Shown: positions 1,580-64,000, numbered from the stretch's first letter. The stretch is 64,000 nucleotides of DNA from an uncultured Candidatus Peribacteria bacterium (GCA_964504915.1 CAZDFH010000006.1:4356-68355), one strand, 5' to 3'. The notes: generated from the letters alone by a model not told the origin. Program-made: numbers and translations.

Positions 1580-3538
1580 TTACATTCTTTCTACAAAAAT
1601 CATCCCTATGAGTTTCATGGCTTGTTGCAATGTCTCTAAGACTTTTTGTAGTAGGTCAATTCTTGTGATTTTTGTTGGTTCTTCATCTACTAATATTTTT
1701 GTATGAGCATAATAACTATTTACTAGTTGTGCTAGATCAAAACAATACTTCGCGATATAGTGTGGTGCTAAGTCATCTTTTGCTTTGAGAATGGTCTCGT
1801 CTAGTCCACTTATTTTTTTGATAAGTGCAAATTCATCGGCTTCTTGGAGTAAAGAATAATCGATTTTTGTCATATCCAACTTGCCTGCACTATCGATGAT
1901 ACTCTTCATTCTCGCTCAGGTATACAGGATATATGCTCAGGTCTCACCTTTCATATCCATTACCTCATCGAGATCAAAAACTATATCTTTAGTGATGTCT
2001 CCTCTGATCAAGAAAAATCTCAAAGCAGAAATTGCCATCGCTTCAGCGACCTTATCTAGTCGCACATCATCTTGTTCTGGATTTCTTTCTTTGGTCTCGA
2101 CATAGGCTTTCTTGTGAAGCATATCGAGCATATCATCTATTGTTACCGTTCGTCATTTTCTACTGGCAAAGGGTAATCTTTTTTCCAATTTTTCTTCATC
2201 GCTCAGATCGATCTTCATATTTAGCAATGTCTTTGGCGTCAAAAAAACGATACCATAGCCAAGTGGCAAATATTTTTTTTCTCCATGGACATGGCCGAGT
2301 AACTTGAGTGCTGAAGCCACAATTGTCTGAGGAGGAATCTGTCTATAATCTATGACAGTGATGGCTTCATCATATTTTCCAAAGCCATGTTTGTTTCATT
2401 TGCTTGTATCCGTACTTGTCGTATACATTCTGACGCCTCTGGGATCTTCTCGTGATTGTTCGTATCAGAAGTCCTTGTCCATGTAACCAAGCTTCCACAT
2501 CGCGAGAGCGATATCTTTGGCGACATAGGTGGCGAGACCATCTGACTTGATCATGATTTGATATTGTTTTTCTTCCTTTGCGTATTCTGGTAAACTAGAA
2601 AGATCAAGGATTCGACATCATTTCGCGTCGCCCTCATCGGCGTATTCCACGAATCATTTTTCCTTCAAGATATCCATCGCTGTGGCGAAAAATTTCAGAT
2701 GTAAGATATGTGTTTCCCAGGCAACGAGGTCGAAGTAGGCGCCCATCCTCCGGCAACTTTCCATTTGTCCATGTGTACAATCCTGGGTGTATTTCTGATG
2801 AAGTGTATTTATTTCTGGATCAGTATTTTCTTCTATCTTCAATAATGTTTCTGTCAATCTCTTTTGGAAAACAGCATCTTCTTCCAATTTTCTCATCTGC
2901 TCATAAATCTCTCCGCAGTAATGATCAAACTTTTTTTTTGTCGTCACGGGGATATCATAGTACATATGTCCGACAATATTGTAGCCGATATTCACTCCGC
3001 TATCATCTCCGTAATCACAGGTCGTAGGCTTATATCCAAGATGTTCATATATTCTCCTCATACTATCGCCGACACAGACATTTCTCGCTTGTCAGATATG
3101 AAGTGGCTTATTTGGATTAGCAGACATGTACTCTATGAGCAATTTGGTGCTTGTTGAGGGTTGAGAAGTTGAGAGTTGAGAGGTGAAAAAATCATTAATG
3201 AAATCAGTCTTTTTAATATGAGCGTTGAGAAATCAGCCGATGGCTTCAAATTTTTCAAAATGCTCTGACTTGAGCTTCTGAGCCATTTCTTGGGCTACTG
3301 CATTTGGTGATTTTTTCATCCATTTGGATAATGAAAAACAAGGAAATGCAAAATCTCCAGGAATATTTTCTGGTGGGGTCTCTATCATAAAGAAAAAAAT
3401 ATCGTCTATCGGCAACTTGGTCTCTTGGTTGAGAATCTCTGCGAAATACTGTTTGTATGTATCAAGTAGCATATCATCGTTTGCTAATATAAATCTTGTG
3501 GCTGAATATTTTTTTGTCTGGTTTGTTTTTTCTGTCAT
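1580..3538 (-). CDS. argS: Arginine--tRNA ligase
   Basis: Track ORFs 1580-1909, 1937-2131, 2654-3061 and 3233-3538 share one frame, and the gaps contain no TAA/TAG (checked). It has an Arg-tRNA-synthetase N-domain, the motif SANPNKPLHI[TGA=G]QARN (HIGH region), a DALR-type C-terminus ending in M, and a TAA stop. Confidence 0.9.
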
Positions 3539-6093: not shown

Positions 6094-6567
6094 ATGCTCG
6101 AAATAGAAAGAAAATTTCTCATTACCAAAATCCCTGAAAATATTTCCTCATTTCCTCATCATGAAATCTTACAATGATATTTTTTCAATGAATGAGAAAA
6201 ATTAGTGAGACTGAGAAAAAAAGGAAATCACTATTACCAGACGACGAAAAGCAGTGCAGGTTTGGTTAGACAACAAGAGGAGTCTGAGCTCTCTCCATCA
6301 GTCTTTGAAGAGGAGTGGAACAATGTCGAAGATCGACAATTACAAAAAACTCGTTACGAAATTCCCTGCGAGTGAAAGATTATTGAGTTAGATATCTACA
6401 AAGGAAAACTAGAATGATTGGTTCTCGCCGAGATAGAATTTACTTCTGAGCAAGAGGCGAATAATTTCACTGCGCCTGCTCGATTGGGTCAAGAATTGAC
6501 TGGCATGGCAGAAGCGGAAAATGCGTATTTGGCGAAATATGGAATACCGGACTCACTGCGTGAGTAG
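6094..6567 (+). CDS. CYTH-domain protein (CyaB/ThTPase family)
   Basis: It starts MLEIERKFLI (the EXEXK signature) and has four internal TGA. FTAPA[CGA]LGQELTG matches the conserved P.WLG.EVT segment if CGA is Trp. The stop is TAG. Confidence 0.8.
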
Positions 6568-19556: not shown

Positions 19557-20867
19557 TTATTCTATAATTCTTTTCTGCAAATATTTCGCAGCGTAAAATA
19601 ATATCATTCATTCGAGACCAATATACAGTAAGACCAAGAAGAAAATTAGCTCCCCGGGGAGAGTAGTATTTCGTAATAAAATAATATTTACTACAAGTGC
19701 TGCGACGGTCGCTACCAATCGATAGGTGTATTCGATAGGCGTGAAAATTTTGGCCAGCAGAGGAATCTTGTGTGCATAGAAAATCAGTGTTGCACTGACA
19801 ATATTTCGTAAAATGGTCCGACTTACTATCGCTCCTACATCACCATTAAAGTAAGAGAATAAGCTGATGTAGATAGCAAAATTGATTACCAAGAAGACGA
19901 CAAGATTTTGGATGATGCTGTTGTATCAAATCTTTTTTAGTAATAAGACGTTCATGACAAAGATGATGATAATCAGCCGATAGAAGATATGTGAAATATT
20001 GGCAAAGCCAGCAATATTGACGACGTAATAATAGATCAATGCAATGATGAGAATAATGTTCATCAGCTCTAGAAGCTTCTTTGCCAAACTTGGCATATCA
20101 AAGACGAAGTGATATATCTTCTGCTGAAACTCTGAGGAGAAACGCTTCTTGGCTGTCGTAATTCTTTCCCCTGCCAATATTCTTCTGACCGAAATATTCG
20201 CTTTCTTGTCTTCGCTGAGTGGTTTATGTTTCAGCACATTGAATATCCAGAAATAGACTCCTGTGAGTAATAAACTATTTAGTGTCAGTGCTACATAGAA
20301 ATTATTTACTCGATGAATAATGATGAGAATGATCGTTCACAATGTCCGTATTCCTAGTTTATATCGCAGATAGTCTTCCATATTTTCTTTAAGTCCGACG
20401 ACGAAGATGAGGAAACCCATGACTCCACACTGCATGACTCGGAGCATACTAAACGTATTCCAAAATCAGATACCTCCTTCAAAGACCGTCATGACGACGA
20501 TAAGAAATATACAGGAGAGATAGTAGCCGAGTTGAAATACCATCTTACCATCTTCATATTTGATGACATACGAACCTAGTCGAAGGAATAAATTTATTCC
20601 AATCAGTCCTAGACATGTCGATACTAAGCTCATTCAGAAAAAATTAAAGATGCCGACAAATCCTGCGAGAATAATAATCCATGCGATGAAGAGACTATAT
20701 CTCTGAAGTAAGTCAGAAGATTTTATTTTGATATTTTGAGTCACTCCGTAATATGCGAACAATATAGCCAAGATGATGATAGGCAAAAATCCTACAAACC
20801 ATAGGCCGATAGCATAGAAGTAGACCATAAATCAGATAATTCAGATGCATAGTGATAATAATGCCAT
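19557..20867 (-). CDS. Polytopic membrane protein (436 aa), function unknown
   Basis: Track ORFs 19608-19892, 19926-20237 and 20634-20828 are in the same frame, and the gaps are free of TAA/TAG (checked). There are at least 10 hydrophobic segments. The track stop at 19608 is TGA, and the real TAA is at 19557. Confidence 0.6.
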
Positions 20868-21012: not shown

Positions 21013-22155
21013 CTAAAGTGCAAAATTAGTTACAATCAGACTCGTCAGTAATCGATATCATAAAATGGTTAATGTATAGATAAGTAAGAGATTGAGAATA
21101 TTTGGTTTTTTCCAAAACTTGCCTATGAAGATCAGTAAGCCCAAGCATCCCACTTTGATCATTTGGATATAGAGCCCAGACAGATTGTCCATGAGCGGTC
21201 GGTAGATATTGTATACAAGGAAGGTTCATCATAGTACGAGAATAAATCCTATACTAAATTCCAGGATAGCATAGAGGCGATCGAAGAGTTGGATAGGACG
21301 TAAAATCCGTGCTACGAAATCTTTCTGAAAAAATTTTCGGCAGAATGCGAGATTGCCAAATAGTGCATAATCTTGGTTTTCTACGCCGACTCTAGCTCCT
21401 AATAATTTGGTCTGCATGGCATATGATTGTCTCATCATCTCCATTTGAATGTCTATGTCAGTCAGGACACTGTCTGTAATTACTTCTTTTGCTTGAGGTT
21501 GTAGTTTTGCAAAGTATCTCTCTTCCAGACTTTCTATCATTTTCATCAGTGCTACACAGCTCTCTTTGATCTTTTCGTAGTTATTCCCCATTCTTAATTT
21601 TCTCAACTCATTTTCCTGCAATGTTATTTTCTCCAGTTCTTGTCTGGTGATATCTCATTTCATCGCTGTCGTGACTTGTTCGCTTTTTTGGAATATTCGA
21701 ATGACTACCTTTTGTGCTGCTGCTAATCTGGGATCGGCGTATATTTTCTTTTCTCTAGTTTTCTTCGTTTGTATCGCTACTTGCTTAGTTTTCTGTTCTA
21801 GAGTTATGGCTTCGCGAGTAGTATCCAAGAGCTTTTGCATGGCTTCTTGGCTTATCGGCTTGGAGACCGAATTAATCTCTTTGACATCTACCCCCAAACG
21901 AAATATTATTTTGCAGGTTTCTTCTATATCGGTTTGTTTGCTTCGTAATGTCACCTGGTCCATTCATCGTTGTATCTTGATCCGAATGTCACCAAACTTT
22001 TTTGGGTCTTCGTCATACTCTTTGAGCGAGAGGACGAGAATAGTATATTTGTCCAAAATCTTCCTCACGAGCAGGTCGGATTCCGTTTCCACCAAGAGTT
22101 CTATCTGTGTGGTGATTTTGTTTTCTTCTTTTATACCATTTACGAGAAAAGTCAT
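21013..22155 (-). CDS. Hypothetical protein with C-terminal TM helices (380 aa)
   Basis: Track ORFs 21964-22155, 21655-21963 and 21229-21621 are in frame, joined by TGA. I extended the frame by hand through TGA TGA at 21226-21231 to TAG at 21013. The C-terminus is hydrophobic. Confidence 0.55.
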
Positions 22156-22822: not shown

Positions 22823-23587
22823 ATGAAAAAATTTCTTCGGACACTGGTGATTCTCGTTTTACTTGCCTGCGCTTTTTTGTTCGTCAAGAAAAACACGACA
22901 CGATTTACCACAGCTCCTGTGACCGTAGTCACTACAGGAATACAGACTTCCGTGACTGAGTCAGATATATTTGTTACTCCAAATTTTTGTACACCAAGAC
23001 ACACAAGACAAGAATATCTTGCCGCTCAAGCTACTGATTGCCAACAAAATAGTTCTTGTGATCAATGGCAAAAAGACATATCAGGTATCGTCTTCGCTGA
23101 TCGATGGTGTGAGCAATCTGGCTTTACTATCAAAGTAATTGATCTTAGCAATGCGACAGGATATCAGGGAATTATCGATCAATCACTCCAAGAAATACAG
23201 ACATTAGGTACACTTCCACATGTGCTCTATCATAATCTTTTGGAGACAGAGATAGGTTTCGACGCTGGATTCCAAACTACAACCTTTGAACTTACGGGAC
23301 AAAGTGTGACCGGTGCTGACACGTCTAGAATGTTTATTAGCATGGAGTGAGAAGCATCTACACCAGTATTCAATCTTATCGTCAAAAAATGAAATTTCAT
23401 CATAGCGATCCAAAATATATTGGAAAAAAATATGGAGCTCGCTCCGATGTTGTCTAGCTTTCAAGCACAATCGCTTCCGACCGCACAAGCTGTCATAGCA
23501 TATTATCAAGCAAATATTCTTACTAACTCCACATTTCAAAATGTGGTAACAAATGCAGTGACTACAACATTAGCACGATTTAAATAA
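22823..23587 (+). CDS. Secreted protein, leader-sharing paralog family member
   Basis: Leader MKKFL[CGG]TLVILVLLACAFLFVKKNTT[CGA]F. The frame is open to TAA at 23585 (checked). Confidence 0.55.
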
Positions 23588-23607
23588 TTTTATTTTTTTC
23601 TCTGCTT

Positions 23608-24315
23608 ATGAAAAAGCTCCTCCGAAAATTAATTATTCTGATCGTCATTGTCTGTATTTACTTGCTGATCAAAAAAAATACTACTCGACTTGGTCTGCCT
23701 ACCCAGATAGGAACTATTCAGACATGAGTTGTTGCCACATGAATTGATTTGACCAACTGTGTCAGCTATTTCGATGGTTGTAATAATTGCTCAGTCAAAG
23801 ATGGGAAAGCAGATGCTTGTACATTGATGTATTGCGAGAAGCCAAGTGAACCAAAGTGTTTACAAGAAAAAACAGGGGAAAATATAGTATCAGCAATCGA
23901 AGATTTTTCATTCCAAATCCCTAAGTGACGAACAATAACCAAGACAACAAGTAATCCTTGTGCTGATTATGACTGTTCTATACCTGTATTACGTATTGCC
24001 ACAAATATAAAAGATAATTCATGATATGTAGTATATGCTTTACTAAAAATAGATGAGGTTAGTAAAAATAAAGTACAGGCTACCGACAAGATACTAATAA
24101 ATCAACCTGACAAAAAATTAGTCCAGTTGGAATGAGTATCATGATTTGGTTCCTTTATGCTTGATATCAAAGGGAAATATTATCTCATAGAAATCGCTGA
24201 TTTTACATCAGAGCAACCAAAGCCCGCTGGCTATAATGATCTTCGACAGCCCTATAATGTGACAGAAAAAGATATAAACAATCTCATTACAATCATAAAA
24301 AGTATATCTAAATAA
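23608..24315 (+). CDS. Secreted protein, leader-sharing paralog with a CxxC-rich module
   Basis: Leader MKKLL[CGA]KLIILIVIVCIYLLIKKNTT[CGA]LG, followed by DLTNCVSYFDGCNNCSVKDGKADACTLMYCEKPSEPKC. The frame was checked to TAA at 24313. Confidence 0.6.
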
Positions 24316-24337
24316 TTTTTAATCCTTCATATCTCTT

Positions 24338-24982
24338 ATGAAAAAACTTCTTCGGAAAATAATTATTCTGATCATCATTGTCTGTATATACTTGCTGATC
24401 AAAAAAAATACTACCCGACTTGGTATGCCTACACAGACAGGAAATGTCCAAACAGGAATCGTTTCTACGGGGATTGATTTGACGAACTGTGTCAGCTATT
24501 TCGACGGTTGTAACAATTGTTCCGTCAAAGATGGGAAAGTAGATGCTTGTACCAAGATGTATTGCGAGAAACCAAGTGAGCCAAAGTGTTCGCAATATGC
24601 TACTGGGAGTGAAACTACGGGATTAGTGAAAAACTCATCATGAGTTAATGATTTCTGATTCATTGAATGATCTCTAAGTTACCCTTCAGAATGAATCCCG
24701 TGAGATATGGAAGTGTGTGCAAGAAATATTTCAACTAAAGAAATTGTCTGTACAAAAGATCACATTGAAAATAATAAATATACATATCATATATGATACA
24801 AGATTAAAGTTCCTGTTGGAATATATAATGTCTATGCTAAGGAATGAAAACTCGAAGCATATTATTCAGAATTTGTAACTTGCTGATTGAAGGCGGAATG
24901 CCCATCGCATAATCTCATACCAGTTTCTGTTTCTGAAAATATGACAGTATCTAATATTGACCCTAGTGATTGGTACAAATAA
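24338..24982 (+). CDS. Secreted protein, near-identical N-terminal half to 23608-24315
   Basis: The first 265 nt or so are roughly 85-90% identical to 23608-23870 by eye, and then the sequences diverge. The frame was checked to TAA at 24980. Confidence 0.6.
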
Positions 24983-25024
24983 AATATTAATATTTATGTT
25001 TTCTTTTATTCTTTTTCTTTCTTC

Positions 25025-25738
25025 ATGAAAAAGCTTCTTCGAATCATCTGAATTCTTATTGTCCTCATCGCAGCATTTTTCGTAGTGAAGGCACAGACTA
25101 CACGATTTGGTTCGACGCAGAAAGCTACAACAACCTTAGCAAATCCAGCTTCGGTGTATTGTCAGCAACAAAGTGGAACACTAGAAATCGTCACTGATTT
25201 GAGTGGATGACAGTCAGGGATCTGTCATTTAACTGATGGTACGACATGTGATGAATGGGCATATTTTAGAGGAGAATGTCCTACGACGGGGATTTCTAGT
25301 GGAGAAAATAGTTGATTTCTAACATATACAGATAATGTGTATGGGATTCAATTACAATATCCAGATACATGGGAAATTTATCAATGACAACCACCATTTG
25401 AATTACCACTTCTTACATGGATGAGGTTTCAAGATAAGACTTGAGATGGCATAATTAGGGTAGCGATTAGCATTTATAGTTGAACATATTCCTCATTTGT
25501 AGATTTTCAAAGTTGGTATAAAGCTTCTATAAAAGACACAATGACATCAGCTCCAATACAAATAAAAATAGCTGGGTTGGATGCAATAGAGACAATGCAG
25601 ACTGATGGTATCGACTCTGTAAGTCCTTATATTTATATTTCAAAAGGCAACAATACAGTTGTATTCACCACAACTAACGGATCAGAAGGAAAAAAACTAC
25701 TATTGGACACACTAGATTCATTAAAATTCACTGATTAG
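25025..25738 (+). CDS. Secreted protein, paralog leader plus a DUF333-like (putative hemolysin) module
   Basis: Leader MKKLL[CGA]II[G]ILIV.., followed by ANPASVYCQQQSGTLEI...GICHLTDGTTCDEWAYFRGEC. Confidence 0.55.
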
Positions 25739-41930: not shown

Positions 41931-42758
41931 ATGAAAACACCAGTCAAAAAAGCAGCCACGACAAAAGTCGCTAAGCCAGCAAGCAATCGTCGATGGACCA
42001 TTATGGCAATCATCAACATTATCGCCTTTATTGCCGTGCTTGTGGTAAATTATCTTGCCGTATCTCTGCCTCTTGGAGGGATGACTACATGAGCATTATC
42101 AGATTTGTATCCCAATTTATTTACTCCCGCAGGACTCACGTTTTCTATCTGGGGACTTATTTACTTGGCTGTGTTTGGATTTGTTGTTCGACAACTTATT
42201 GATCTTTTCAAAAAAAAATCTCGCTGAATCACCAGGAAAGTAGGAGTCCGATTTTTCTTGTCCTGCCTTGCTAATATCGGATGGATGTTTGCTTGGCAAT
42301 ATCAGCACGTAGCATTGTCACTTCTTATTATGTTGCTCTTTTTGATAATCTTGATTGTCCTATCATACAAAGTTTCTCTTGGTAAAAAATTAGGAAATCG
42401 ATGAGACAAATTACTTGTTCAAGTCCCCTTTAGTTTGTATCTTGGCCGAATTTCTGTCGCTACAATAGCAAATACAGCAGCATTACTTGTCCATATGCAA
42501 CGAACGATGCGAGGCATCTCTCCTGTGTCTTGGACTATTCTTCTCATCATTATCGCTACCTTACTTGCTTTGATGGCATTATGGAAAAAATATAATATTA
42601 TCTTTGCTTTGGTTGTGATCTGGGCGTTTATTGGGATCATTATCAAGACACTCAATGCAGAAGTCATCTACACTCAAATAATCCGAACCTTGGGTGTCTG
42701 TATCTCCATCATATCCCTAGGCATCGGAGCTAAATTTATTCAATGGAAGAAGAATTAA
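41931..42758 (+). CDS. TspO/MBR-related membrane protein (long form)
   Basis: It is a multi-TM, aromatic-rich protein with several CGA codons at positions that would be Trp. It overlaps the next gene by 16 nt. Confidence 0.5.
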
Positions 42759-43180
42759 ATTTTATTCTATATACTCCCATGAAGCCAACTACCAATCGAT
42801 ATGCTCATATCAAAAAGCCCTCTCGAGCTCCGCCAGCTTGGCTCTTTGGACCAGTGCGAACTTTTTTGTATATCCTGATCGTGATCTCATTTGGGAAAGT
42901 ATTTCTCATGGCAGGAGCTCATCAGATTGTTTTCCTTGTCGTATTGCCATTTATACTCAATGCAATTTTCAATCTTATTTTCTCTCCTATCCAGTTTGGA
43001 CTTAAAAATAATGTCCTCGCGGCGATAGATGTAATTCTTATCTTGGCAACACTTATCTGGGCTACGATAGCTATCTATCCATATATGCATCGGGTTGCTT
43101 ATCTTCAGATTCCTTATCTGATCTGGGTATGTATTGCTACGACCTTGCAGCTTACCGTCACGTACATGAATAGAAAATAG
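42743..43180 (+). CDS. TspO/MBR family (tryptophan-rich sensory protein)
   Basis: KKPS[CGA]APPAWLFGPV[CGA]TFLY matches the conserved KPsWaPP.W.FgpvWt.LY segment. It has 5 TM segments. Confidence 0.7.
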   Translation: MEEELNFILYTPMKPTTNRYAHIKKPSRAPPAWLFGPVRTFLYILIVISFGKVFLMAGAHQIVFLVVLPFILNAIFNLIFSPIQFGLKNNVLAAIDVILILATLIWATIAIYPYMHRVAYLQIPYLIWVCIATTLQLTVTYMNRK

Positions 43181-43248: not shown

Positions 43249-44130
43249 TTATATCTTCATATTATGATCTGTAGGTTTCATAACATATACGACAGCATCT
43301 TCCATTACATCTTTCACTTGTTGCTGTGAAAGGCCTAATGTTTTTGGTGAAGTTAAATCGCTATATACTTCCATAAAACTATGTCTCTCAATAGAGAAGC
43401 CAAGATCCTCGAAGAACTTTTTGGCCTCTTCCTCTGTTTCAAAGCAATTACTCGAAATATCTTTACCCGTTATCTTCGACATTTTTGCTATATGATTTGG
43501 CCTAATCTTATTTTCTTTATTGAACATCTCTCTCAAAGAGATATCTGATGTTATCCAAACTCCATTAAATTCTTCCAAAACTTTATGAATATGTTGAGCG
43601 ACTTTTGCCTTTTCATCCTTGGTTAAATAACGAAGTAGACCTTCGTTTGTGATAACTAGAGGTTTTGATTTATTAAAATATTTAACTGCTTTTTCCAAAC
43701 TTTCAAAATCTAAAGCATTCCCAGACTCAAAGTGTAAATTACTTGGCATTTCAAATCCTCCTTCTGCTGCAATTCCTTTTATGATTTGTTCTTTTTTTTG
43801 TATCACTGACGGTAAATCAAGTTCTACATAATTAAAATTATTTTCTTTGGACATAGATAATCCACGAGAAGAAAACCCAGAAGCAAGCTCTAATACTTGA
43901 TCTGAATTAGTTTCATAGATCAGTTTATCTATGAGCTTATGCCTTGCTTCAAATTGTGGTGCTGGTTTTTTGAGATCAAAAGGAATATCTTCGTAATTAT
44001 TTTTTCCACTGATTTTTTTTAGATTTTCAAAAATTTCTGATGAATAGGGGATATCAGCAAAAGTCCTACGATAAGCAGCCATCAATGCTGTCGGTATAAC
44101 TTTTTCAAAACTTTTTTGACGATTTTTCAT
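43249..44130 (-). CDS. Class I SAM-dependent methyltransferase (leucine-carboxyl/O-methyltransferase-like)
   Basis: VLELASGFSSRG (motif I) and ITNEGLLRYL. There is no TGA anywhere in the gene. The track ORF extends to 44193, but that N-terminal stretch is made of GC-rich hairpins, so I prefer the ATG at 44130. Confidence 0.65.
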   Translation of the reverse strand: MKNRQKSFEKVIPTALMAAYRRTFADIPYSSEIFENLKKISGKNNYEDIPFDLKKPAPQFEARHKLIDKLIYETNSDQVLELASGFSSRGLSMSKENNFNYVELDLPSVIQKKEQIIKGIAAEGGFEMPSNLHFESGNALDFESLEKAVKYFNKSKPLVITNEGLLRYLTKDEKAKVAQHIHKVLEEFNGVWITSDISLREMFNKENKIRPNHIAKMSKITGKDISSNCFETEEEAKKFFEDLGFSIERHSFMEVYSDLTSPKTLGLSQQQVKDVMEDAVVYVMKPTDHNMKI

Positions 44131-44153
44131 ACTATTCTTGTCGAAGGTAAATT

Positions 44154-44166
44154 CGGAAGGCACAGG
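44154..44166. repeat. 13-nt direct repeat of the tRNA-Ser 3' end
   Basis: CGGAAGGCACAGG at 44154-44166 is identical to 44231-44243 (the tRNA 3' terminus, read on the plus strand). Confidence 0.9.
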
Positions 44167-44230
44167 CCCCGCTGTTGCGGGGTAAAATTTCAAGCGAAGC
44201 GCAGTCCCGCTTTAGCGGGGGAACCTTAAT

Positions 44231-44315
44231 CGGAAGGCACAGGATTCGAACCTGCGGTACCTTGCAGTACGCACCGTTTCCAACGGTGTGCTTTAGACCA
44301 CTCAGCCAACCTTCC
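44231..44315 (-). tRNA. tRNA-Ser (anticodon GGA), class II with long variable arm
   Basis: Reverse complement GGAAGGTTGGCTGAGTGGTCTAAAGCACACCGTTGGAAACGGTGCGTACTGCAAGGTACCGCAGGTTCGAATCCTGTGCCTTCCG. The anticodon stem is CACCG/CGGTG with loop TTGGAAA, and the T-arm is CAGGTTCGAATCCTG. No CCA is encoded. Confidence 0.9.
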
Positions 44316-44882: not shown

Positions 44883-46706
44883 CTACTTTACTGTGACCGA
44901 TTTCGCTAGATTTCTTGGCTTATCGATGTCTTTGCCGAGAATGTCCGCTACATGATATGCTAATAATTGCCCAACGATGACGGTCAGAAATGGATATATT
45001 TCATCGATAGTCGAGGGGAGTGTAATATTTCGGTCAGCATTATCAATGTCTTTATCAGAAATAGTGATCACCTTTCCATCTCTTGCTTTGATTTCTTGAA
45101 TAGAGGAAACATTTTTTTCGAACATCAAATCGTTTGGCGCAAAGAGTACACTTGGTACTGATGCTTCGATCAACGCTAGCGGCCCATGTTTCAATTCTCC
45201 ACTTGCATAACTCTCTGAATGCAGATAAGTAATTTCTTTCAATTTTAGACTACTTTCTGTGGCTATAGGTAACTGATAGTGTCTTCCTAGGAAGAAGAAA
45301 TTTTTGTACTCGGCTACTTTCTCTGCTATGCCTCTAATCGTCGCTGTGTTGGCTAAAATGTCTTCTATCATTACTGGCACCTTACTGAGCTCTATCATGA
45401 TCTTGTCATATTTTGCTTTTGTTAATCATCTTTTCTGTCCGAGATATAAGGCCAAGAGAAGAATACAAGTAACCTGTGCGGTGAATGCTTTCGTGGATGC
45501 CACTCAGATTTCTGCTCCACACCTGGTAAAAAGTCCGTAGTCTGTCAGACGGGAAATAGTAGATCCGACGACATTTACGATGCCAAATGTATGTCATCAT
45601 TTTTGCTGGATGAGTTTCAATACTGATATACTGTCTGCGGTCTCGCCGGATTGAGAAATGAATACGTAGAGTGTATCATCACGTACTTGGATATTTCTGT
45701 ATTCATATTCGCTGGATATTTCGCAGCTTGCATCGATGCCGGCGATATTTTCCATCCGATAAGATCCTAGACATCATGCATTATAACTCGTACCACATCC
45801 CACGAAGACAATCTTCTTGAAATGCTCGTCTTGCATGCCATGAAATGCTTCTGCATTCAATGTATTCTGATTAAAATCTACTCTTCATTTAAAGATTCTT
45901 CTGATAATATTTGGCTGTTCAAAAATTTCTTTGAGCATAAAATGCTTGAAATCTCATTTAGATGATTCCAAGAGTTGCAAGTCCATGTCTTCGATTTTCC
46001 TATCTGCACGTATACCATTTGACTTGACGCTATAATCATTTCCTTTGAGGTGAACGATGTCACCATCGTCGAGATAGATCAACTTGTCGGCGTAGCCAGC
46101 GAGTGCTTGTTTGTCGGAAGAGAAGAAATAATCTCCTGTCCCATTGTATGCTAGCACAAGTGGGCTTCACAATTTCACGGCAATAATTTCATTGGGTGCA
46201 TAGGTGGAGACTATCAATAATGCATATGCTCATCTGATCATTCAGATTACTTTCTCGACAGTTTTCATGAAATCTCCCGTTCGATTATCTTCCAATAAAT
46301 TGGCAATAACTTCGCTATCTGTCTGTCCATAAAAGGTGTATCACTTCGCGAGTAAATCTTGTTTCAGCTTGTGGTAATTTTCTATAATTCAATTATGTAC
46401 TAAGTAGAAATGTCTATTCATGTCGTGGTGTGGATGCGTGTTTTCCTCTGTGACGCCCCCGTGAGTAGCCCGACGTGTGTGGGCAATTCAGAAGGTATAT
46501 GTTTCTTTGTCTCAGATTTCTTTCGCGACTTTGTCTGCAAGTTTGGAGACTTTACCGACTGCTCTGATGAGCTTGATCTCTGCTTTTTCGTTCCCCACCA
46601 ACAAACCTGCTGAATCGTATCCACGGTATTCTAGTCTTTCTAGTCCGTGTACGAGAATCTTGTGCGCCTCGTGACTTTTGCCTTGGTATCCAAAAATTCC
46701 ACACAT
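44883..46706 (-). CDS. glmS: Glutamine--fructose-6-phosphate aminotransferase
   Basis: MCGIFGY N-terminus and the C-terminus ...[13 protein letters not shown]. The track ORFs are in frame, and the gaps were checked for TAA/TAG. Confidence 0.9.
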
Positions 46707-47715: not shown

Positions 47716-50700
47716 TTATACCACAATATTTAAAATTTTTCCTTTCACGTAAATTACTTTTTTTGGCTCACCTGTGATTCGATTAGCAATCTTCTCATCG
47801 GCTTTTGCTGCTGTCATTGCGTCTCCTTCAGTGGCTTCTAGATCTAGAGAAATCGTTCCTCTGACCTTGCCATTTACCTGGACGGCTATCGTGATCGTGT
47901 CGGCGATCAATAACTTTTCATCATATGTTGGCCATGTAGCTTTGGTAAAAATGGAGTACTCGTTTCAGAGTTGTTCCCAAAGTTCTTCCGCCAAATGTGG
48001 TGCAAACGGAGATGTCAAAATAACCAACGTTTCAAAGGTCTTACGTGATATGGTTCAGCAATCTGTGAGGTGATTCGTCAAGATCATGAGCTGAGAAATT
48101 GCTGTGTTGAATTTAAACTCATCTATATTCTCAGTGATTTTTTTAATCGATTGATTTAGAAGAATGATAGTCTGAAGGTCTTCAGGTCATCAAGTCTTCA
48201 GGTCTATTAAGTCTTCAGGTCCATCAAGTCATCAAGTCTCCTGTCATTCGACTTTATGGACTTTAGACTTTACGGACTTTACAGACTCGTTGGTTCGGAC
48301 TTTAAGACTGAGGTTCGCAACCTTGTCCAAGAACTTTTTCGATCCGGAAATTCATGCAGTATTCCATGCGATAGCTTGTTCAAACGGGCCCATAAACATT
48401 TCATAAGTTCTCAAAGTATCAGCTCAGAACTGGCTTACGATATCGTCTGGATTGACGACATTTCATCGTCTCTTGGACATTTTTCTACCATCTTCACCCA
48501 TGATGAGTCAGACGTAATGATATTCTTGGAATGGTTCATCATGAGAAATCGCTCCGATATCAAAAAGAAATTTCTGCCAAAATCTACCATAGATCATATG
48601 TCTGGTGACGTGTTCTGCTCCACCGATATAGATATCGACATTGCCTCGATATTTTTCTTTGTCCTTGCCGACAAGTGCTTTATCATTGGTCGGATCCATA
48701 TATCTGAGCCGGTATCGTGAACTGCCTGCCCATCCTGGCATCGTATTGGTTTCGCGTTTTGCTTTCGTTCCATCTGGTAACGTTACATTGACCCGATCAG
48801 TAATATTTGCCAGTGGTCACTCTTCTGTTCCCGTGGGTGCATAATTTTCTACATCAGGCAAGAGTAAAGGAAGATCTTTCTCATCCAAAGGAATAATTTT
48901 TGCTGACTCTTGTTGTCTGTTTGGATTTGTTATGACTGCGTTTAGTATGTCATGGTCTTCCTTGTTTTGGAAATGTCTCTTCTTGTCTAGGATGATAGTC
49001 TCTCGTTGTTTGGTTACGACGTCTTGCGTATCTACAGAAATATATGGATCGTCTTGTGATACAAACAATATTTTTTCTTGAGCATTCTTATCTATTTTTT
49101 TGAAATTCAATTTGAGATCAATAATTTTGCTCAAGGCGACAATATCGGAATCTTGAAATTCTGGATTTTCACTTACATCATTTACTATCTTCTTGGCTGT
49201 GGTAACTGGTGCGACGAGAATCAGTTTCCCAATCTTCTGCTCAGCTTGCTCTACGAGCTTAAGCGCAAATTTCCCTCATAGGCTGTGGCCTATCACGATA
49301 TCATTTTCTCCTAATTTGTTGAAGTATGGTAATAGAAATTCCATCGTCTCATCGTAATTTGGACTGTCAGGATTTGGTAATGTTTCATTAAATACTTCAT
49401 ATCATTTTGCTGTCAATTCTTTCGTGATTCGTGGAAATCGATTCCCTTCTTTCCTTCATTCGAAGCCATGAATTAATAATACTTTTTTTCATCATTTTTG
49501 GGTATTTACTATTTCAAATTCTCGTCCAACTAGACCATTCTTCTCGATCTTCTCTCTATATCAAGGTTTGAAATCTCGACCTTGTTGAAAATCTTCGAAG
49601 CTTTTTACGGATGCGAAAGCTTGCTTGTTGGTGTAGATTTTTTCGATAATTTTTTTGTCCGTTGACCGAAGATCTTCCAAGTTTTTCCGTGTATGCGTGG
49701 TTTTTATTTTGACCGAAATAGTAGTTCAGGTTTCTTTGTTTTCAAAATGTAGTATGTCTCCAACTTTTACGTCACCAAAATATCTATCTGGCTCTTCGGG
49801 GTTGAGAGCTCTGGTTTCGAGCGTCTTCGTTCCATCAACGATGGACTGCCACGTTGTCTGATCATAAAAATGTATGGTAAGTTTTGGTTTGTCTTCCGTC
49901 TCAGTTCGTAATATAGGGAAAGGTTCCCCTCGATATCTTTGTCTACTAAATACTCGATCTTGCATGCGGTAAGAAATTATTTTTTCTGCTCGTCATTTCT
50001 TAATGTAATATTCTGAAATTTTTTGTGTGGCCATGTGGATATCCATGCCATCTAGAAAATCTGAATGTATCATCTTTCACTCTTCTTCTTGGACTTGTTC
50101 AGCTTTTGTGATGGGGGAAGTATCTCAGTTAGATCCAATAACAACTCTTATCACTGGGATATCAAAGGTTTGAGCAAATTCAAAGTCACGTATATCGTGT
50201 CCAGGCACACCAACAACCGCTCAAGTACCAAATCATCCTAGGACGAAATCTGAAATCCAAATAGGGATTTCTTTTCCATCTATTAGTCTGTGGTCGGCAT
50301 AAAATCAAGTAAATGCTCATGTTTTGACATGTCATTCTGCTATTCTTTGGAGCTCGGTTTTTTGCTTGGTTTCAAAAACATATTTTTCTATATCAATATA
50401 TGTTTTTTTATCCACCGCAATTTCCTTATTTAATATTTTTGTCACAAAAGGATGTTCTGGTGCCAAGACGATAAATGTTGCACCAAAATTTGTGTCTGGT
50501 CTTGTAGTAAAACATACGACTTCTTCATGAGTTCATATAATTGGATAATGAATATTAATTCCTTCTTTTTTCCCAATCCAATTTCTTTCTAAGTCTTTCA
50601 TCGATTCTTCTCGATTAAGTTTGTCCAATCACTGCAATAATCTCTCTGCATATTTTGTAATCCTCAATACTCGTTGTTTCATTGGCTTTTGTTCTACTTC

Positions 50701-51351
50701 TGAGCCACAGCGTTCACACTTTCCATCATCGAGATCTTCATTTGCCAATCCTGTCATACAATGAGGACATCGATTTATCGGCTTATAATCTACGAACGCC
50801 AAACGTTGCGAATTAATAAATTGCTCTTTTGTTAATCAGTCTGGAACTTTCAACTTTCAACTTTCAACTTTCAACTCGAATTTTTTTACAGGCTCAGCCT
50901 TATGTGTTTCATCGTCATAATAGTGATTAAATAACTGTAAAAAAATTCGTTGTGTTCGTTTGAAGTATTCTGGATCGGCTGTGTTTACTGATCTGCTTCG
51001 ATCATATGACATGCCAAACATTTTGAGTTGCTGTATAAACTTTTCTACGTTTTGCTTAGCGACAGTTTGTGGCTTCATTTTATTATCGATAGCATATTGT
51101 TCAGTTCATAGACCAAATGTATCAAATCCCATAGGATGAAGCACGTTAAATCATTCCAACATCTTCTTCCTCGCAAGCGTATCACTTGCGATATATCATT
51201 TGGGATGTCAGACGTGAAGTGCGGCTCCGCTAGGATAGGGAAACATATCCAAAACGTAAAATTTTGGTTTGCTCGTATTTTCTTTGACTTTGTAGAGGTC
51301 AGTTTCTTTTCGCTTTTTCTGTCGCTTTTCTCAGATTTCTTTTAAGTTCAT
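47716..51351 (-). CDS. leuS: Leucine--tRNA ligase with a large in-frame ASCH-like plus serine-hydrolase insertion
   Basis: The frame was verified free of TAA/TAG over all 3636 nt. LeuRS motifs are [10 protein letters not shown][G]HPKGY, IN[CGA]CPHC, TTRPDT (CP1 editing), SRQRY[CGA]GEP, YIGGAEH and KMSK. The insertion spans roughly 48900-49905 (see findings). Confidence 0.88.
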
Positions 51352-51763: not shown

Positions 51764-52633
51764 TTATCCGAGATATTGTTTTAATTGTGTAGATCTAGAG
51801 GTGTGCTTGAGTCTTCTGATGGCTTTTTCTTTGATCTGTCTGACCCTTTCTCTGGTTAAATCAACTTGCTCTGCTATTTCTTCTAAGGAAAGTGGATGCT
51901 TCCCGTTGAGCCCGAAGTAGAGGCGAATCACATCTGCTTCTCTCTCTGAGATTGTTGATAGGGAGCTTTCAATTTCTTGTCTCAATGAATCGAACAATAG
52001 TCCACTATCTGGTGCTCGAATAGCTTCCTCAGCTGCGAATGAATCTCAGAGCGTAATATCTTCATCTACGAGACTAGGAGCATCCAGTGATGCATGTTTT
52101 CCATCACTGCTCTCCATACTCGCTTTAATCTGCTCTAGTGGTAGATCAAGTGCTTCTGCTAGCATTTCTTCTGTGGGCTCATATCCGTTTGCATTGGTGA
52201 GGCTAGCGAATTTTTTATTAATTCTATTAATACTTCCTATTCTGTTGAGTGGTAGTCTGACTATTCTTGCTTGCTCTGCAAGTGCTTGTAGGATAGATTG
52301 ACGAATCCGTCGTACAGCATAGGAGATAAATTTAAATCATCTCGTCTCATCAAATCTCTTTGCTGCTTTTATCAATCATAAATTTCCCTCATTGATAATG
52401 TCAGGAAGTGAGAGTCATTGATTCTGATATTTCTTTGCTACAGAGACGACAAACCTTAGATTCGCTTTGGTTAATCTTTCAAGTGCCTGTACTGATCATC
52501 ATTTGATTGCTTGTGCTAATTGTATCTCTTCTTCTGCTGTGATAAGCTCTACTTTTCAAATCTCTTGAAGATATTTGTCTAAGGATGTAGCGTCGCGATT
52601 CATAATGTTCTTGGTAATTTTGAATTGTCTCAT
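51764..52633 (-). CDS. rpoD: RNA polymerase sigma-70 family factor (primary-like, no region 1.1)
   Basis: Region 2: [20 protein letters not shown][G]LIKAAKRFD and FISYAV[CGA][CGG]IRQSI (universal TWWIRQ). Region 4: [28 protein letters not shown]. The frame was checked. Confidence 0.85.
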
Positions 52634-55055: not shown

Positions 55056-56231
55056 ATGTTGAATTTTACTTACCATGTGCCGACCAAGATTCTTTTTGGT
55101 AAAGGGCAGGTTTCTCATTTAGCTGAAGAAATTAAGCGCTTCTGAGATAAGATCTTACTTACGTATGGATCTTGATCTATCAAAACCAATGGCATCTATG
55201 ATCAGGTAATCGATATCCTCAAGCAGGAAAATATCCAATATCGAGAGCTCTGAGATATTGAGCCAAATCCTGATATTACTTCCGTCCGCGCAGGCATTGC
55301 ACTCTGCAAAGAGCATGGTATCCAGTTTATTTTAGCTGTATGAGGATGAAGTACTATCGATGCATCCAAAGCTATTGCACTCGGTCATTATTATCAAGGA
55401 GATGCCCGAGATATATTTAGTAAACCGGTGGAAATCACGCAAGCATTACCTCTGGGCACTATCCTTACCTTGGCAGCTACCTGAAGTGAAATGAATTCGT
55501 GAATGGTCATCAGTAACCGTGCATTACAAGAGAAACGTGTTTTTAAGTCAGGTCTTTTGTGTCCACAATTTTCTATCCTAGATCCGACATATACTTTTTC
55601 TCTTCCCGTCAAACAGACCGTTGCCGGTGTGGTAGATATTATGAGTCATGTTTTCGAACAATATTTTAGTCTTACGGAATCAACAGAAATTCAGGATAGT
55701 CTCGCTGAATGAATTTTGCAAACCTGTATTTATTATTCTCATAAAGTATTGATTGATCCAGAGGATTATGATGCGAGAGCCAATCTCATGCGAGCTGGAT
55801 CGTTGGCACTCAACGGTTTAACTGGACTTGGTAAACAGCAAGATCGAGCGACGCATACTATCGAGCATGCGCTGAGTGCTGTCTATGATATCACACATGG
55901 AGACTGACTTGCTATCATCACTCCTCATTGGATGGAATATGTCTTGGGTGACGGAACAAACCAAAAAATACTGGACAAATTTCTCGACTTGGCTACTCGT
56001 GTACGAAACATTCCACCCGTCGGTGATCCTCTCGTCGTCGCGAAAAAATGAATTCAATCTGTAAGAAAATTTTGGACTCAGCTCTGAGCTCCTTCTACAT
56101 TACGTGAAGTAGATGTCGTTGCACCAGATATTTCTGTGTTGGTCGATAAAATTTTGGTTAATGGCCCTATCTGATCATTTGTCTCATTATGAGAAAAAGA
56201 AGTCATTGAGATCTTGGAGAATAGTATGTAA
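55056..56231 (+). CDS. Iron-containing alcohol dehydrogenase (butanol dehydrogenase / YqhD-like)
   Basis: FILAV[G][G][G]STIDASK, LAAT[G]SEMN and QD[CGA]ATHTIEHALSAVYDITHG (conserved DWatH..eH). The frame was checked. Confidence 0.85.
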
Positions 56232-63021: not shown

Positions 63022-64000
63022 ATGACTACACCATGATTTGCTCTCTTGGCAGAGCGTTACCATCCTGTATTGGATCTTAAGTCTACAGAGATGGCGATTA
63101 AGTATTGTAAAGATGTGTTTGAGACACAACTGGCTGAAAAATTACATCTTGTCAGAGTCTCGGCGCCATTATTTGTCTCACAGGAAAGTGGCATCAACGA
63201 TGCCCTCAACGGTGTAGAAAGGGCAGTCGCTTTCCAGATAAAAGACTTGCCTGGTACTACTGCTGAGATTGTCCACTCGTTAGCTAAGTGGAAAAGAATG
63301 GCTTTGTATAGGTATGGATTCACTCCATGAGAAGGTATCTATACTGATATGAATGCTATTCGCCGTGATGAAGAATTAGACGAATTGCATTCTCTTTATG
63401 TCGATCAGCGAGATCGAGAGTCTATCATTACTAAAGATGAAAGAACTATAGAGACGCTCAAGACAAAAGTCATTTCTATTTACGAAGCACTCAAGACCAC
63501 GGAGCAATTGTTGCATGAGAAATTCCCTTCATTGAGGACTATCTTGCCAGAAACTATTCACTTTATCACTACGCAAGAGTTAGAGGATAGGTATCCTGAG
63601 TTAAGCCCAAGAGAAAGAGAAGATTTGATTTGCAAAGAATACGGAGCTGTCTTTGTGATGGGTATCTGAGACAAACTCGCATCCTGAATCTTACATGATG
63701 GCAGGGCTCCTGATTATGATGACTGGAAACTCAACGGAGATATCCTGGTCTACTATCCTGAGCTAGAAAGAGCATTTGAGATTTCTTCTATGGGCATTAG
63801 AGTCGATGAGACTTCACTTATCGAACAGTTAGACAAAAGATGATGTCCAGAAAAGATACATTTCCCGTATCACAAAATGATCGCTGATAAAGAGTTGCCC
63901 TATACCATCGGAGGATGAATTGGTCAGTCAAGAATATGTATGTTGCTTCTTCACAAACTTCACATCTGAGAAGTCCAAGCATCGCTTTGGCCTGAAGCAA
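63022..64000 (+). CDS. asnA: Aspartate--ammonia ligase (asparagine synthetase A), 3' end off window
   Basis: [22 protein letters not shown][CGA]D[CGA]E (E. coli DQWDWE), [10 protein letters not shown]-like [10 protein letters not shown] and GG[G]IGQSR. Confidence 0.88.

What the first reader, a model, noticed from the sequence alone, without database searches (positions are those of the whole stretch)
52307..52312. CGA and CGG sit at invariant tryptophan positions: an apparent Arg-to-Trp sense-codon reassignment
The flagship case is the sigma-70 region 2.3 universal WW of TWWIRQ, written here as CGA-CGG (FISYAV[CGA][CGG]IRQSI).

Other cases read directly from the sequence:
- AsnA DQ[CGA]D[CGA]E, equivalent to DQWDWE (63409-63417).
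- LeuRS EK[CGA]QKK[CGA] (N-terminus), IN[CGA]CP (50770-50772), SRQRY[CGA]G (49930-49932), SS[CGA]Y[CGG]LRY (48709-48717) and KY[CGA]GNVDIYIGG (48646-48648).
- TspO KPS[CGA]APP and GPV[CGA]T (42824-42826 and 42857-42859).
- CYTH PA[CGA]LG (6481-6483).
- Fe-ADH QD[CGA]ATH (55845-55847).
- YdeN-type GN[CGA]FP[CGA] (49429-49440).

DnaK has many Arg and almost no Trp, and it contains no in-frame CGA or CGG. Its Arg residues use AGA, AGG, CGT and CGC. To my recollection, a published computational screen (Codetta) proposed CGA/CGG to Trp for Absconditabacterales. This window would be direct positional support for that proposal.
Basis: partly seen in the sequence, partly recalled or inferred. Interest (0 to 1): 0.85.

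Follow-up and report, generated by a model that had tools for sequence, protein, structure and literature searches.

The report
CGA/CGG read as tryptophan (known recoding)
In this stretch of an uncultivated SR1/Absconditabacterales genome, the arginine codons CGA and CGG sit where every other bacterium has tryptophan, which confirms a genetic-code change first predicted by computer in 2021, so the finding is real but not new.

Summary
The window uses TGA as a glycine codon (code 25 background). Its CGA and CGG codons behave as tryptophan codons by four independent tests.

1. Against 72 standard-code LeuRS genes, 15 of the 19 alignable CGA/CGG codons fall in Trp-majority columns and none in Arg-majority columns (P = 2e-22).
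2. Alignments to solved structures put W opposite CGA/CGG in sigma-70 (WW of region 2.3), AsnA, TspO, GlmS, Fe-ADH, CYTH and a YdeN-like domain.
3. Among 16 loci of related genomes, window CGA/CGG pair with TGG/CGA/CGG at 247 of 302 sites and with true Arg codons at 1. Window Arg codons never pair with CGA/CGG (0 of 759).
4. Nine curated family models all score the same or better with W than with R, by 173 bits in total.

It is the reassignment published by Shulgina and Eddy (eLife 2021) and treated as known in 2026 papers.

The one modest extension concerns frequency. Here CGA (64 per 10,000 codons) is more frequent than TGG (53), above any CGA value (13-37) in the 2021 table, which counted only Pfam-aligned codons.

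The decoding tRNA could not be checked. The window holds only tRNA-Ser(GGA), and no fetched related locus held a UCG, CCG or CCA tRNA.

The parts
52307..52312 (-). CGA-CGG pair encoding the two Trp of sigma-70 region 2.3 (FISYAV-WW-IRQ)
   Evidence: WW in 4 solved SigA proteins. TGG-TGG in 80 of 80 standard-code metagenome loci. The RpoD model scores 277.1 bits with W and 260.1 with R.
51764..52633 (-). Sigma-70 (RpoD/SigA-type) gene with 7 in-frame TGA (Gly), 2 CGA and 1 CGG
   Evidence: The TGA codons align to Gly of EGN-G-L and of the conserved G before FKF.
47716..51351 (-). Leucyl-tRNA synthetase, 1211 aa, with 22 CGA, 4 CGG, 8 TGG and 36 TGA. It includes a 333-aa insert (about 48907-49905) that carries a YdeN-like serine hydrolase domain.
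   Evidence: Of 19 alignable CGA/CGG, 15 lie in Trp-majority outgroup columns and 0 in Arg-majority columns. The leuS_bact model scores 863.2 bits with W and 795.4 with R. Insert.
49429..49440 (-). GN[CGA]FP[CGA] inside the LeuRS insert, equivalent to H-W-F-P-W of B. subtilis YdeN and W-x-x-W of RBBP9
63409..63417 (+). AsnA DQ[CGA]D[CGA]E, equivalent to DQWDWE
   Evidence: E. coli AsnA 11as and 9v83. The asnA model scores 366.8 bits with W and 354.5 with R.
42743..43180 (+). TspO gene. CGA at 42797-42799, 42824-42826 and 42857-42859; CGG at 43091-43093.
   Evidence: The first three align to W in all three references shown. The fourth aligns to W in the two R. sphaeroides TspO sequence variants and to V in the third reference. 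The TspO model scores 73.8 bits with W and 60.0 with R.
6094..6567 (+). CYTH-domain gene. CGA at 6481-6483 (PA-W-LG) and CGA at 6334-6336.
   Evidence: The codon at 6481 lies in a column that is W in 75 of 95 distant homologs. The codon at 6334 lies in a variable column (N, R, K, H) and is CGA in all 7 related loci.
55056..56231 (+). Iron-containing alcohol dehydrogenase with 5 CGA (55242, 55407, 55791, 55845, 56004)
   Evidence: The references show W/W at two sites, H/W and Y/W at two more, and F/F at one. The model scores 336.8 bits with W and 312.7 with R.
44883..46706 (-). GlmS. CGG at 46470-46472 (AHTR-W-ATHG) and at 45756-45758 (Y-W); CGA at two variable sites.
   Evidence: The glmS model scores 694.0 bits with W and 683.2 with R.
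1580..3538 (-). Arginyl-tRNA synthetase, the enzyme that would have to reject the CGA/CGG-reading tRNA. It has 4 CGA and 1 CGG, all in variable columns.
   Evidence: The W-versus-R score difference is about zero (+2.4, -0.3 and -5.1 bits on three models).
44231..44315 (-). tRNA-Ser(GGA), the only tRNA gene in the window. It is not part of the recoding and is listed only to show that the decoding tRNA is absent from the window.

Best explanation
The window comes from a member of the SR1/Absconditabacterales lineage (GTDB class JAEDAM01). In this organism UGA is read as glycine, and the former arginine codons CGA and CGG are read as tryptophan. Trp is therefore written with three codons (UGG, CGA, CGG), and Arg with only AGA, AGG, CGU and CGC.

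Shown here: the codon-to-residue correspondence.

Inferred from the literature, not shown here: decoding is by a tRNA with anticodon UCG (plus a CCG tRNA) that has lost the arginine identity element A20, carries G73, and is charged by TrpRS. ArgRS no longer accepts it, and CGU/CGC are read by tRNA-Arg(GCG).

In this lineage the change is complete enough that CGA has become the commonest Trp codon. The ratios CGA/CGG = 5.3 and TGG/CGG = 4.4 resemble other synonymous A/G and T/C pairs of the same genes. This is what a three-codon synonymous family close to compositional equilibrium would show.
For: 1. TGA is sense. Table-11 ORFs are fragmented and TAA/TAG-only ORFs are long. TGA aligns to Gly and exchanges with GGN in relatives.
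2. LeuRS against 72 standard-code outgroups. In the 24 Trp-majority columns the window has CGA 14, CGG 1, TGG 6 and other codons 3. In the 22 Arg-majority columns it has AGA 14, AGG 1, CGC 2, CGT 1, AAA/AAG 4 and CGA/CGG 0. P = 2e-22.
3. Alignments to solved structures place W opposite CGA/CGG in sigma-70, LeuRS, TspO, AsnA, Fe-ADH, GlmS, YdeN/RBBP9 and CYTH.
4. Codon exchange with 16 related loci, a test that needs no reference code. Window CGA/CGG pair with TGG/CGA/CGG at 247 of 302 sites and with AGA/AGG/CGT/CGC at 1. Window TGG pairs with CGA/CGG at 58 of 176 sites. Window Arg codons pair with CGA/CGG at 0 of 759.
5. Curated NCBIfam models score higher with W than with R: LeuRS +67.8, Fe-ADH +24.1, RpoD +17.0, NrdD +15.7, TspO +13.8, AsnA +12.3, GlmS +10.8, RlmL-like +9.3 and ArgRS +2.4 bits.
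6. There is no avoidance at critical sites. CGA/CGG make up 15 of 21 Trp codons in conserved LeuRS Trp columns, against 126 of 213 overall. This argues for faithful rather than ambiguous decoding.
7. Trp frequency is 0.53% with TGG alone and 1.29% with all three codons.
8. The reassignment is published for this clade, with matching tRNAs reported (PMC8629427; PMC13092985).
Against: - No tRNA with anticodon UCG, CCG or CCA was seen. The window has only tRNA-Ser(GGA), and no fetched related locus had one.
- There is no protein-level evidence here or in the literature. A 2026 preprint states that the arginine reassignments are not yet experimentally verified.
- A few CGA/CGG codons align to something other than Trp. 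The CYTH codon at 6334-6336 lies opposite Arg in the one solved homolog, although that column is variable. One subtilase site lies opposite Arg in 1 of 3 references. LeuRS position 962 (KMSKR-X-GN) is K in T. thermophilus and N. gonorrhoeae and R in 6 of 60 outgroups, but W in 36 of 60.
- ArgRS scores do not discriminate between W and R.
- The codon-exchange counts are not phylogenetically independent.
Confidence: 0.92

Rival explanations
1. Ambiguous decoding. CGA/CGG are read partly as Trp and partly as Arg, through competing tRNAs or mischarging, so the proteome is statistical at these sites.
For: No tRNA or proteomic data are available. The authors of the 2021 paper themselves leave ambiguity open. 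A few CGA codons sit in columns where Arg or Lys occurs in outgroups.
Against: CGA/CGG are not avoided at invariant Trp positions. They make up 15 of 21 Trp codons in conserved LeuRS columns against 59% overall, and they encode both Trp of sigma region 2.3. They never exchange with Arg codons among relatives (1 of 302 and 0 of 759).
Confidence: 0.05
2. Standard decoding. CGA/CGG are still Arg, and the lineage has really replaced many conserved Trp residues by Arg.
For: Public databases translate these genes that way. For example, P0001 is this LeuRS with R at all 26 sites.
Against: It would require Arg at more than 30 conserved Trp positions across at least 8 unrelated proteins, and at no conserved Arg position. 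It also cannot explain free TGG to CGA/CGG exchange among relatives or the complete lack of CGA to AGA/CGT exchange. Model scores drop by 173 bits in total.
Confidence: 0.01
3. mRNA editing. C-to-U editing turns CGG into UGG before translation, as happened with the historical 'CGG = Trp' of plant mitochondria (from my own knowledge).
For: It would explain CGG at Trp positions without any change of tRNA.
Against: Most cases are CGA (106 against 20 CGG). Editing CGA gives UGA, which is Gly in this organism. No C-to-U mRNA editing system is known in bacteria (own knowledge). The literature reports Trp-type tRNAs with UCG and CCG anticodons in this clade.
Confidence: 0.01
4. Artefact. The pattern comes from assembly chimerism, contamination or wrong reading frames.
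For: The sequence is from a metagenome assembly. One outgroup locus (L014) was picked in a wrong frame by my ORF rule and was excluded.
Against: The pattern is uniform across 64 kb and at least 10 genes on both strands. It is reproduced in independent assemblies of relatives from NCBI, ENA and Logan.
Confidence: 0.01

Closest known systems
CGA/CGG to Trp reassignment of Absconditabacteria (SR1), Shulgina and Eddy, eLife 2021 (PMC8629427); re-found by the KACI preprint in 2026 and used as known in NAR 2026 (PMC13092985)
   Same: Same codons and same new meaning. Same UGA = Gly background and low GC (0.37 here; 0.29-0.38 in their table). Arg is written mainly as AGA. The closest named relatives are 'Candidatus Absconditabacterales/Absconditabacteria'.
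   Different: Codon frequencies. Here CGA is 64 per 10,000 and exceeds TGG at 53 (whole ORFs). Their ten genomes have CGA 13-37 and UGG 35-75 per 10,000 in Pfam-aligned codons. They described the reassignment as an early stage without rebound. About 40 LeuRS clusters in public data share this high-CGA state.
CGG to Trp in Anaerococcus and in RFN20 Bacilli (Onthovivens); CGG to Gln in Peptacetobacter (same 2021 paper)
   Same: An arginine CGN-box codon is captured by another amino acid in low-GC bacteria.
   Different: There only CGG changes and CGA stays Arg, with tRNA(UCG) absent. Here both codons change together, which the authors attribute to a UCG tRNA reading both.
Genetic code 25 (UGA = Gly) of SR1 and Gracilibacteria
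   Same: Present in this window. TGA is the most used Gly codon, at 220 per 10,000.
   Different: Code 25 as tabulated does not include the CGA/CGG change. Translating with table 25, 4 or 11 therefore still puts Arg at every such Trp.
Apparent 'CGG = Trp' of plant mitochondria, later explained by C-to-U RNA editing (own knowledge)
   Same: CGG lies at conserved Trp positions in the DNA.
   Different: Editing cannot explain CGA here, because UGA is Gly. See the rival explanations.

Membership tests
Absconditabacterales CGA/CGG to Trp code (Shulgina and Eddy 2021) | UGA read as Gly (code 25 background) | tested here: met
Absconditabacterales CGA/CGG to Trp code (Shulgina and Eddy 2021) | CGA falls in conserved Trp columns, not Arg columns | tested here: met
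   In LeuRS, 14 CGA lie in Trp-majority columns and 0 in Arg-majority columns. PDB alignments.
Absconditabacterales CGA/CGG to Trp code (Shulgina and Eddy 2021) | CGG falls in conserved Trp columns | tested here: met
   Second Trp of sigma-70. GlmS HTR-W and Y-W. LeuRS position 853, W in 58 of 60 outgroups. There are fewer sites than for CGA: 20 CGG codons in all.
Absconditabacterales CGA/CGG to Trp code (Shulgina and Eddy 2021) | Arg written only with AGA, AGG, CGU and CGC | tested here: met
Absconditabacterales CGA/CGG to Trp code (Shulgina and Eddy 2021) | tRNA(UCG) and/or tRNA(CCG) with Trp-type identity (G73, no A20) | not testable with these tools
   The only tRNA in the window is Ser(GGA). 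None was found in the fetched related loci. The literature reports such tRNAs.
Absconditabacterales CGA/CGG to Trp code (Shulgina and Eddy 2021) | No tRNA-Arg(ACG); CGU/CGC read by tRNA-Arg(GCG) | not testable with these tools
   This needs the whole genome.
Absconditabacterales CGA/CGG to Trp code (Shulgina and Eddy 2021) | Placement in Absconditabacterales (class JAEDAM01) | tested here: inconclusive
   No tree was built. The best named LeuRS and CYTH relatives are Candidatus Absconditabacterales / SR1. All close relatives share TGA-sense and CGA/CGG at Trp sites.
Absconditabacterales CGA/CGG to Trp code (Shulgina and Eddy 2021) | Low genomic GC (0.26-0.38) | tested here: met
   0.36-0.39 across the window
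Absconditabacterales CGA/CGG to Trp code (Shulgina and Eddy 2021) | Trp found in the protein at CGA/CGG sites | not testable with these tools
   No proteomic data. Reported as unverified in 2026.

The most novel reading that the evidence does not exclude
In this sublineage the reassignment has gone past the 'rare codon' stage described in 2021. CGA has overtaken UGG as the main Trp codon, and UGG, CGA and CGG behave as a three-codon synonymous family near compositional equilibrium. This implies exclusive, efficient Trp decoding. It also implies a TrpRS/tRNA pair that no longer depends on the CCA anticodon, which is normally a major Trp identity element. That mechanism is undescribed.
Probability: 0.55. 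Interest if true: 0.4.

Novelty: already known. Interest (0 to 1): 0.3.

Why it matters
Sense-codon reassignments in bacteria are very rare, and this one is still only a computational prediction. The window adds clean positional evidence and a codon-exchange test that needs no reference code.

It also has a practical consequence. Public protein databases hold these genes with Arg at every CGA/CGG-encoded Trp, and sometimes with Trp at every UGA-encoded Gly. In the LeuRS of this window, 62 of 1211 residues are wrong. Such errors distort homology searches, structure prediction and phylogeny for the whole clade.

The high CGA usage makes this lineage a good target for proteomic confirmation, because there are many diagnostic peptides.

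Tried and rejected
- The look-up of encoding contigs found no record for the window's own LeuRS as held in the database (P0001), nor for a table-11 AsnA fragment. The 95.9-kb source contig therefore could not be extended beyond the window to look for tRNAs.
- The genome-contig scan with LeuRS gave about 7 related loci and 72 outgroups, but no relevant tRNA.
- The metagenome scan with sigma-70 returned only standard-code outgroups. They were useful as a control but not for tRNAs.
- Look-ups of five related proteins gave tRNA-Ser(GGA) and a Phe-Ile-Pro cluster only.
- I considered a direct DNA pattern search for a UCG-anticodon tRNA and dropped it. With the bases that can be safely specified (about 28 bits), thousands of chance matches are expected in the collection.
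- The supplements of the two papers hold no tRNA sequences.
- Locus L014 was excluded from the in-clade set because my ORF rule picked a wrong open frame in a GC-rich contig.
- The top 120 LeuRS homologs in the protein database could not serve as an outgroup, because all come from recoded relatives mistranslated with R.

Full report
**What is at the coordinates.** Bases 52307-52312 read ccgtcg on the + strand. On the minus strand this is CGA-CGG, in frame in a 289-aa sigma-70 gene (51764-52633). The local sequence is ...EGNL[TGA][12 protein letters not shown][TGA]FKFISYAV[CGA][CGG]IRQSI....

Under table 11 the whole window breaks into short ORFs. With TAA/TAG as the only stops it resolves into about 70 long ORFs that carry many in-frame TGA codons. 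The window therefore uses TGA as a sense codon. In the sigma factor the two TGA codons align to conserved Gly residues of solved SigA proteins. In LeuRS, 12 of the 21 alignable TGA codons fall in Gly-majority columns. In related genomes TGA exchanges with GGA, GGT, GGC and GGG. This is the code 25 background of SR1 and Gracilibacteria.

**Flagship site.** Four solved SigA proteins align WW opposite CGA-CGG. Eighty sigma-70 loci fetched from metagenomes all use the standard code, and all have TGG-TGG at this motif. The curated RpoD model scores 277.1 bits if the codons are read as W and 260.1 if read as R.

**LeuRS, the richest gene (22 CGA, 4 CGG).** I fetched 80 LeuRS loci from one-genome-per-species contigs. 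Seventy-two of them have no in-frame TGA and serve as a standard-code outgroup. Most are other CPR bacteria. Seven have many in-frame TGA and are relatives.

In a MAFFT alignment with codons tracked the outgroup defines two sets of columns.
- 24 Trp-majority columns: the window has CGA 14, CGG 1, TGG 6 and other codons 3.
- 22 Arg-majority columns: the window has AGA 14, AGG 1, CGC 2, CGT 1 and AAA/AAG 4, with no CGA or CGG.

Fifteen of the 19 alignable CGA/CGG codons fall in the 24 Trp columns out of 793 aligned columns (hypergeometric P = 2e-22). The remaining four lie in a His column, a Tyr column and two variable columns. At all these sites the relatives carry only TGG, CGA or CGG. Alignments to T. 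thermophilus and N. gonorrhoeae LeuRS agree.

The one apparent exception is position 962 (KMSKR-X-GN). It is K in those two structures, but W in 36 of 60 outgroup sequences.

All are confirmed against solved structures.
- AsnA: DQ-X-D-X-E aligns to DQWDWE.
- TspO: three CGA align to W in all three references. One CGG aligns to W in the two R. sphaeroides sequence variants and to V in the third reference.
- CYTH: PA-X-LG aligns to PPWFG, and the column is W in 75 of 95 distant homologs.
- Fe-ADH: QD-X-ATH and GDA-X-D align to W in both references. Two further CGA align to W in one reference and to H or Y in the other, and one aligns to F.
- GN-X-FP-X aligns to H-W-F-P-W of B. subtilis YdeN and to W-x-x-W of RBBP9.

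In addition, two CGG codons of GlmS align to the conserved W of AHTRWATHG and of Y-W.

**Less favourable cases, reported for balance.**
- The five ArgRS sites and most of the eight subtilase sites lie in variable columns. The references show H/K, L/F, Y, L/T, A, S, N/D/C, and R in one of three references at one subtilase site.
- The CYTH codon at 6334-6336 lies opposite Arg in the only solved homolog. In 95 distant homologs that column is N 32, R 19, K 18 and H 10. All seven related loci have CGA there and never AGA or CGT.
- No CGA or CGG codon was found in a column that is conserved for Arg.

**A test that needs no reference code.** I collected 16 loci from related recoded genomes, drawn from independent NCBI, ENA and Logan assemblies. 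I aligned their ORFs to the window's genes and counted codon pairs.
- Window CGA/CGG (302 sites): paired with TGG/CGA/CGG at 247 and with AGA/AGG/CGT/CGC at 1.
- Window TGG (176 sites): paired with TGG at 77, with CGA/CGG at 58 and with Arg codons at 0.
- Window AGA/AGG/CGT/CGC (759 sites): paired with each other at 568, with AAA/AAG at 70 and with CGA/CGG at 0.

The six 'arginine' codons thus form two disjoint exchange classes, and CGA/CGG belong with TGG. The counts are not phylogenetically independent, but the separation is total.

**Family-model scores.** I read CGA/CGG as W or as R and scored each version against NCBIfam. The gains for W over R, in bits, were:
- LeuRS +67.8
- Fe-ADH +24.1
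- RpoD +17.0
- NrdD +15.7
- TspO +13.8
- AsnA +12.3
- GlmS +10.8
- RlmL-like +9.3
- ArgRS +2.4

The other two ArgRS models gave -0.3 and -5.1. The nine best-model gains sum to about +173 bits.

**Codon usage.** In ORFs of at least 150 aa (16,553 codons) the frequencies per 10,000 codons are CGA 64, CGG 12, TGG 53, AGA 205, AGG 37, CGT 47, CGC 14 and TGA 220. Trp would be 0.53% of residues with TGG alone and 1.29% with all three codons.

CGA/CGG make up 15 of 21 Trp codons at conserved LeuRS Trp columns, against 126 of 213 overall. They are therefore not avoided at critical positions, which argues against substantial ambiguity (inference).

CGA/CGG = 5.3 lies within the range of other A/G-ending synonymous pairs (for example AGA/AGG 5.6 and CCA/CCG 5.3). 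TGG/CGG = 4.4 is near TTG/CTG = 3.2. This is what a synonymous three-codon family near compositional equilibrium would show. It is suggestive only.

**Comparison with what is known.** Shulgina and Eddy (eLife 2021, PMC8629427) predicted exactly this change for Absconditabacteria. CGA and CGG both become Trp on top of UGA to Gly. They report supporting conserved positions and tRNAs with anticodons UCG and CCG, classed as Trp-type by G73 and lack of A20. They find no tRNA(ACG) in the clade. A 2026 NAR paper treats it as established. A 2026 preprint re-finds it with another algorithm. Another 2026 preprint notes that it is still not experimentally verified.

**What is slightly new.** The 2021 source table lists CGA at 13-37 and UGG at 35-75 per 10,000 in ten Absconditabacterales genomes. 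The authors describe an early stage without rebound. In this window CGA exceeds TGG. The measures differ, because theirs counts only Pfam-aligned codons, so the comparison is approximate. The LeuRS Trp columns nevertheless give the same picture (15 CGA/CGG against 6 TGG).

About 40 LeuRS clusters in the public protein collection (61-70% identical to this one) show 14-19 'R' at the 24 conserved Trp columns. A more distant group shows 3-6. The high-CGA state thus characterises a whole sublineage rather than this genome alone.

**What could not be done.** The mechanism rests on the literature. The window has a single tRNA gene, Ser(GGA). The source contig could not be extended. None of the related loci I could reach contained a tRNA with anticodon UCG, CCG or CCA. 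How TrpRS accepts a non-CCA anticodon, and how ArgRS (present in the window at 1580-3538) rejects it, remains open.

**Verdict.** The phenomenon is real, and it is already published.

Noticed in passing
window 47716-51351 (minus); insert at about 48907-49905: The LeuRS is 1211 aa because 333 residues are inserted between ...YWGEPFPILW and [14 protein letters not shown]. The second half of the insert is a YdeN/RBBP9-type serine hydrolase domain (PF06821). The first ~135 aa have no family hit. Related LeuRS proteins carry other extra domains in frame: NUDIX, GxxExxY PD-(D/E)XK (PF13366), DUF559, MTES_1575 and alpha/beta hydrolase. Twenty-five relatives have a ~135-aa insert at this same site, and length differences show that other insertion sites exist. 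No intein-like junction residues were seen.
   Followed up: partly
window 47716-51351; database protein P0001: The public protein collection holds this very LeuRS translated with table 4. All 36 TGA are given as W and all 26 CGA/CGG as R, so 62 of 1211 residues are wrong. The 120 best LeuRS homologs show only W/R mixtures at Trp columns for the same reason.
   Followed up: yes
window 22823-25738 (+): Four tandem paralogous genes (255, 236, 215 and 238 aa) share an N-terminus MKK[LF]L-X-...KKNTT-X-[LF]G. The same two positions are written CGA or CGG in all four. They look like secreted or membrane-anchored proteins. Reading X as W or as R cannot be decided from these alone.
   Followed up: no
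window 43249-44193 (minus), next to tRNA-Ser(GGA) at 44231-44315: A 315-aa ORF with no TGA, CGA or CGG at all and GC 0.33, in a genome where TGA is the commonest Gly codon. It may be a recently acquired gene.
   Followed up: no
whole window: TGA is the most used glycine codon (220 per 10,000, against GGA 210, GGT 137, GGC 74 and GGG 57).
   Followed up: yes
L003 15171-15441; L162 9501-9793: In two related genomes a tRNA cluster Phe(GAA)-Ile(GAU)-Pro(UGG) lies next to LeuRS. In L162 it sits between LeuRS and tuf plus the S10 operon. In the window LeuRS is flanked by sigma-70 instead, so gene order around LeuRS is poorly conserved in the clade.
   Followed up: partly
L009 (JAIPGI010000006.1, 'Candidatus Gracilibacteria bacterium'): This LeuRS has no in-frame TGA. 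A genome labelled Gracilibacteria therefore uses the standard stop, in line with the taxonomy problems noted in the literature.
   Followed up: no
window 19557-20867, 21013-22155 and 41931-42758: Three membrane-protein ORFs with no Pfam hit carry 8-10 CGA/CGG each. Read as Trp they become very Trp-rich (for example 16 W in 276 aa). Only close relatives have homologs in the fetched loci.
   Followed up: partly
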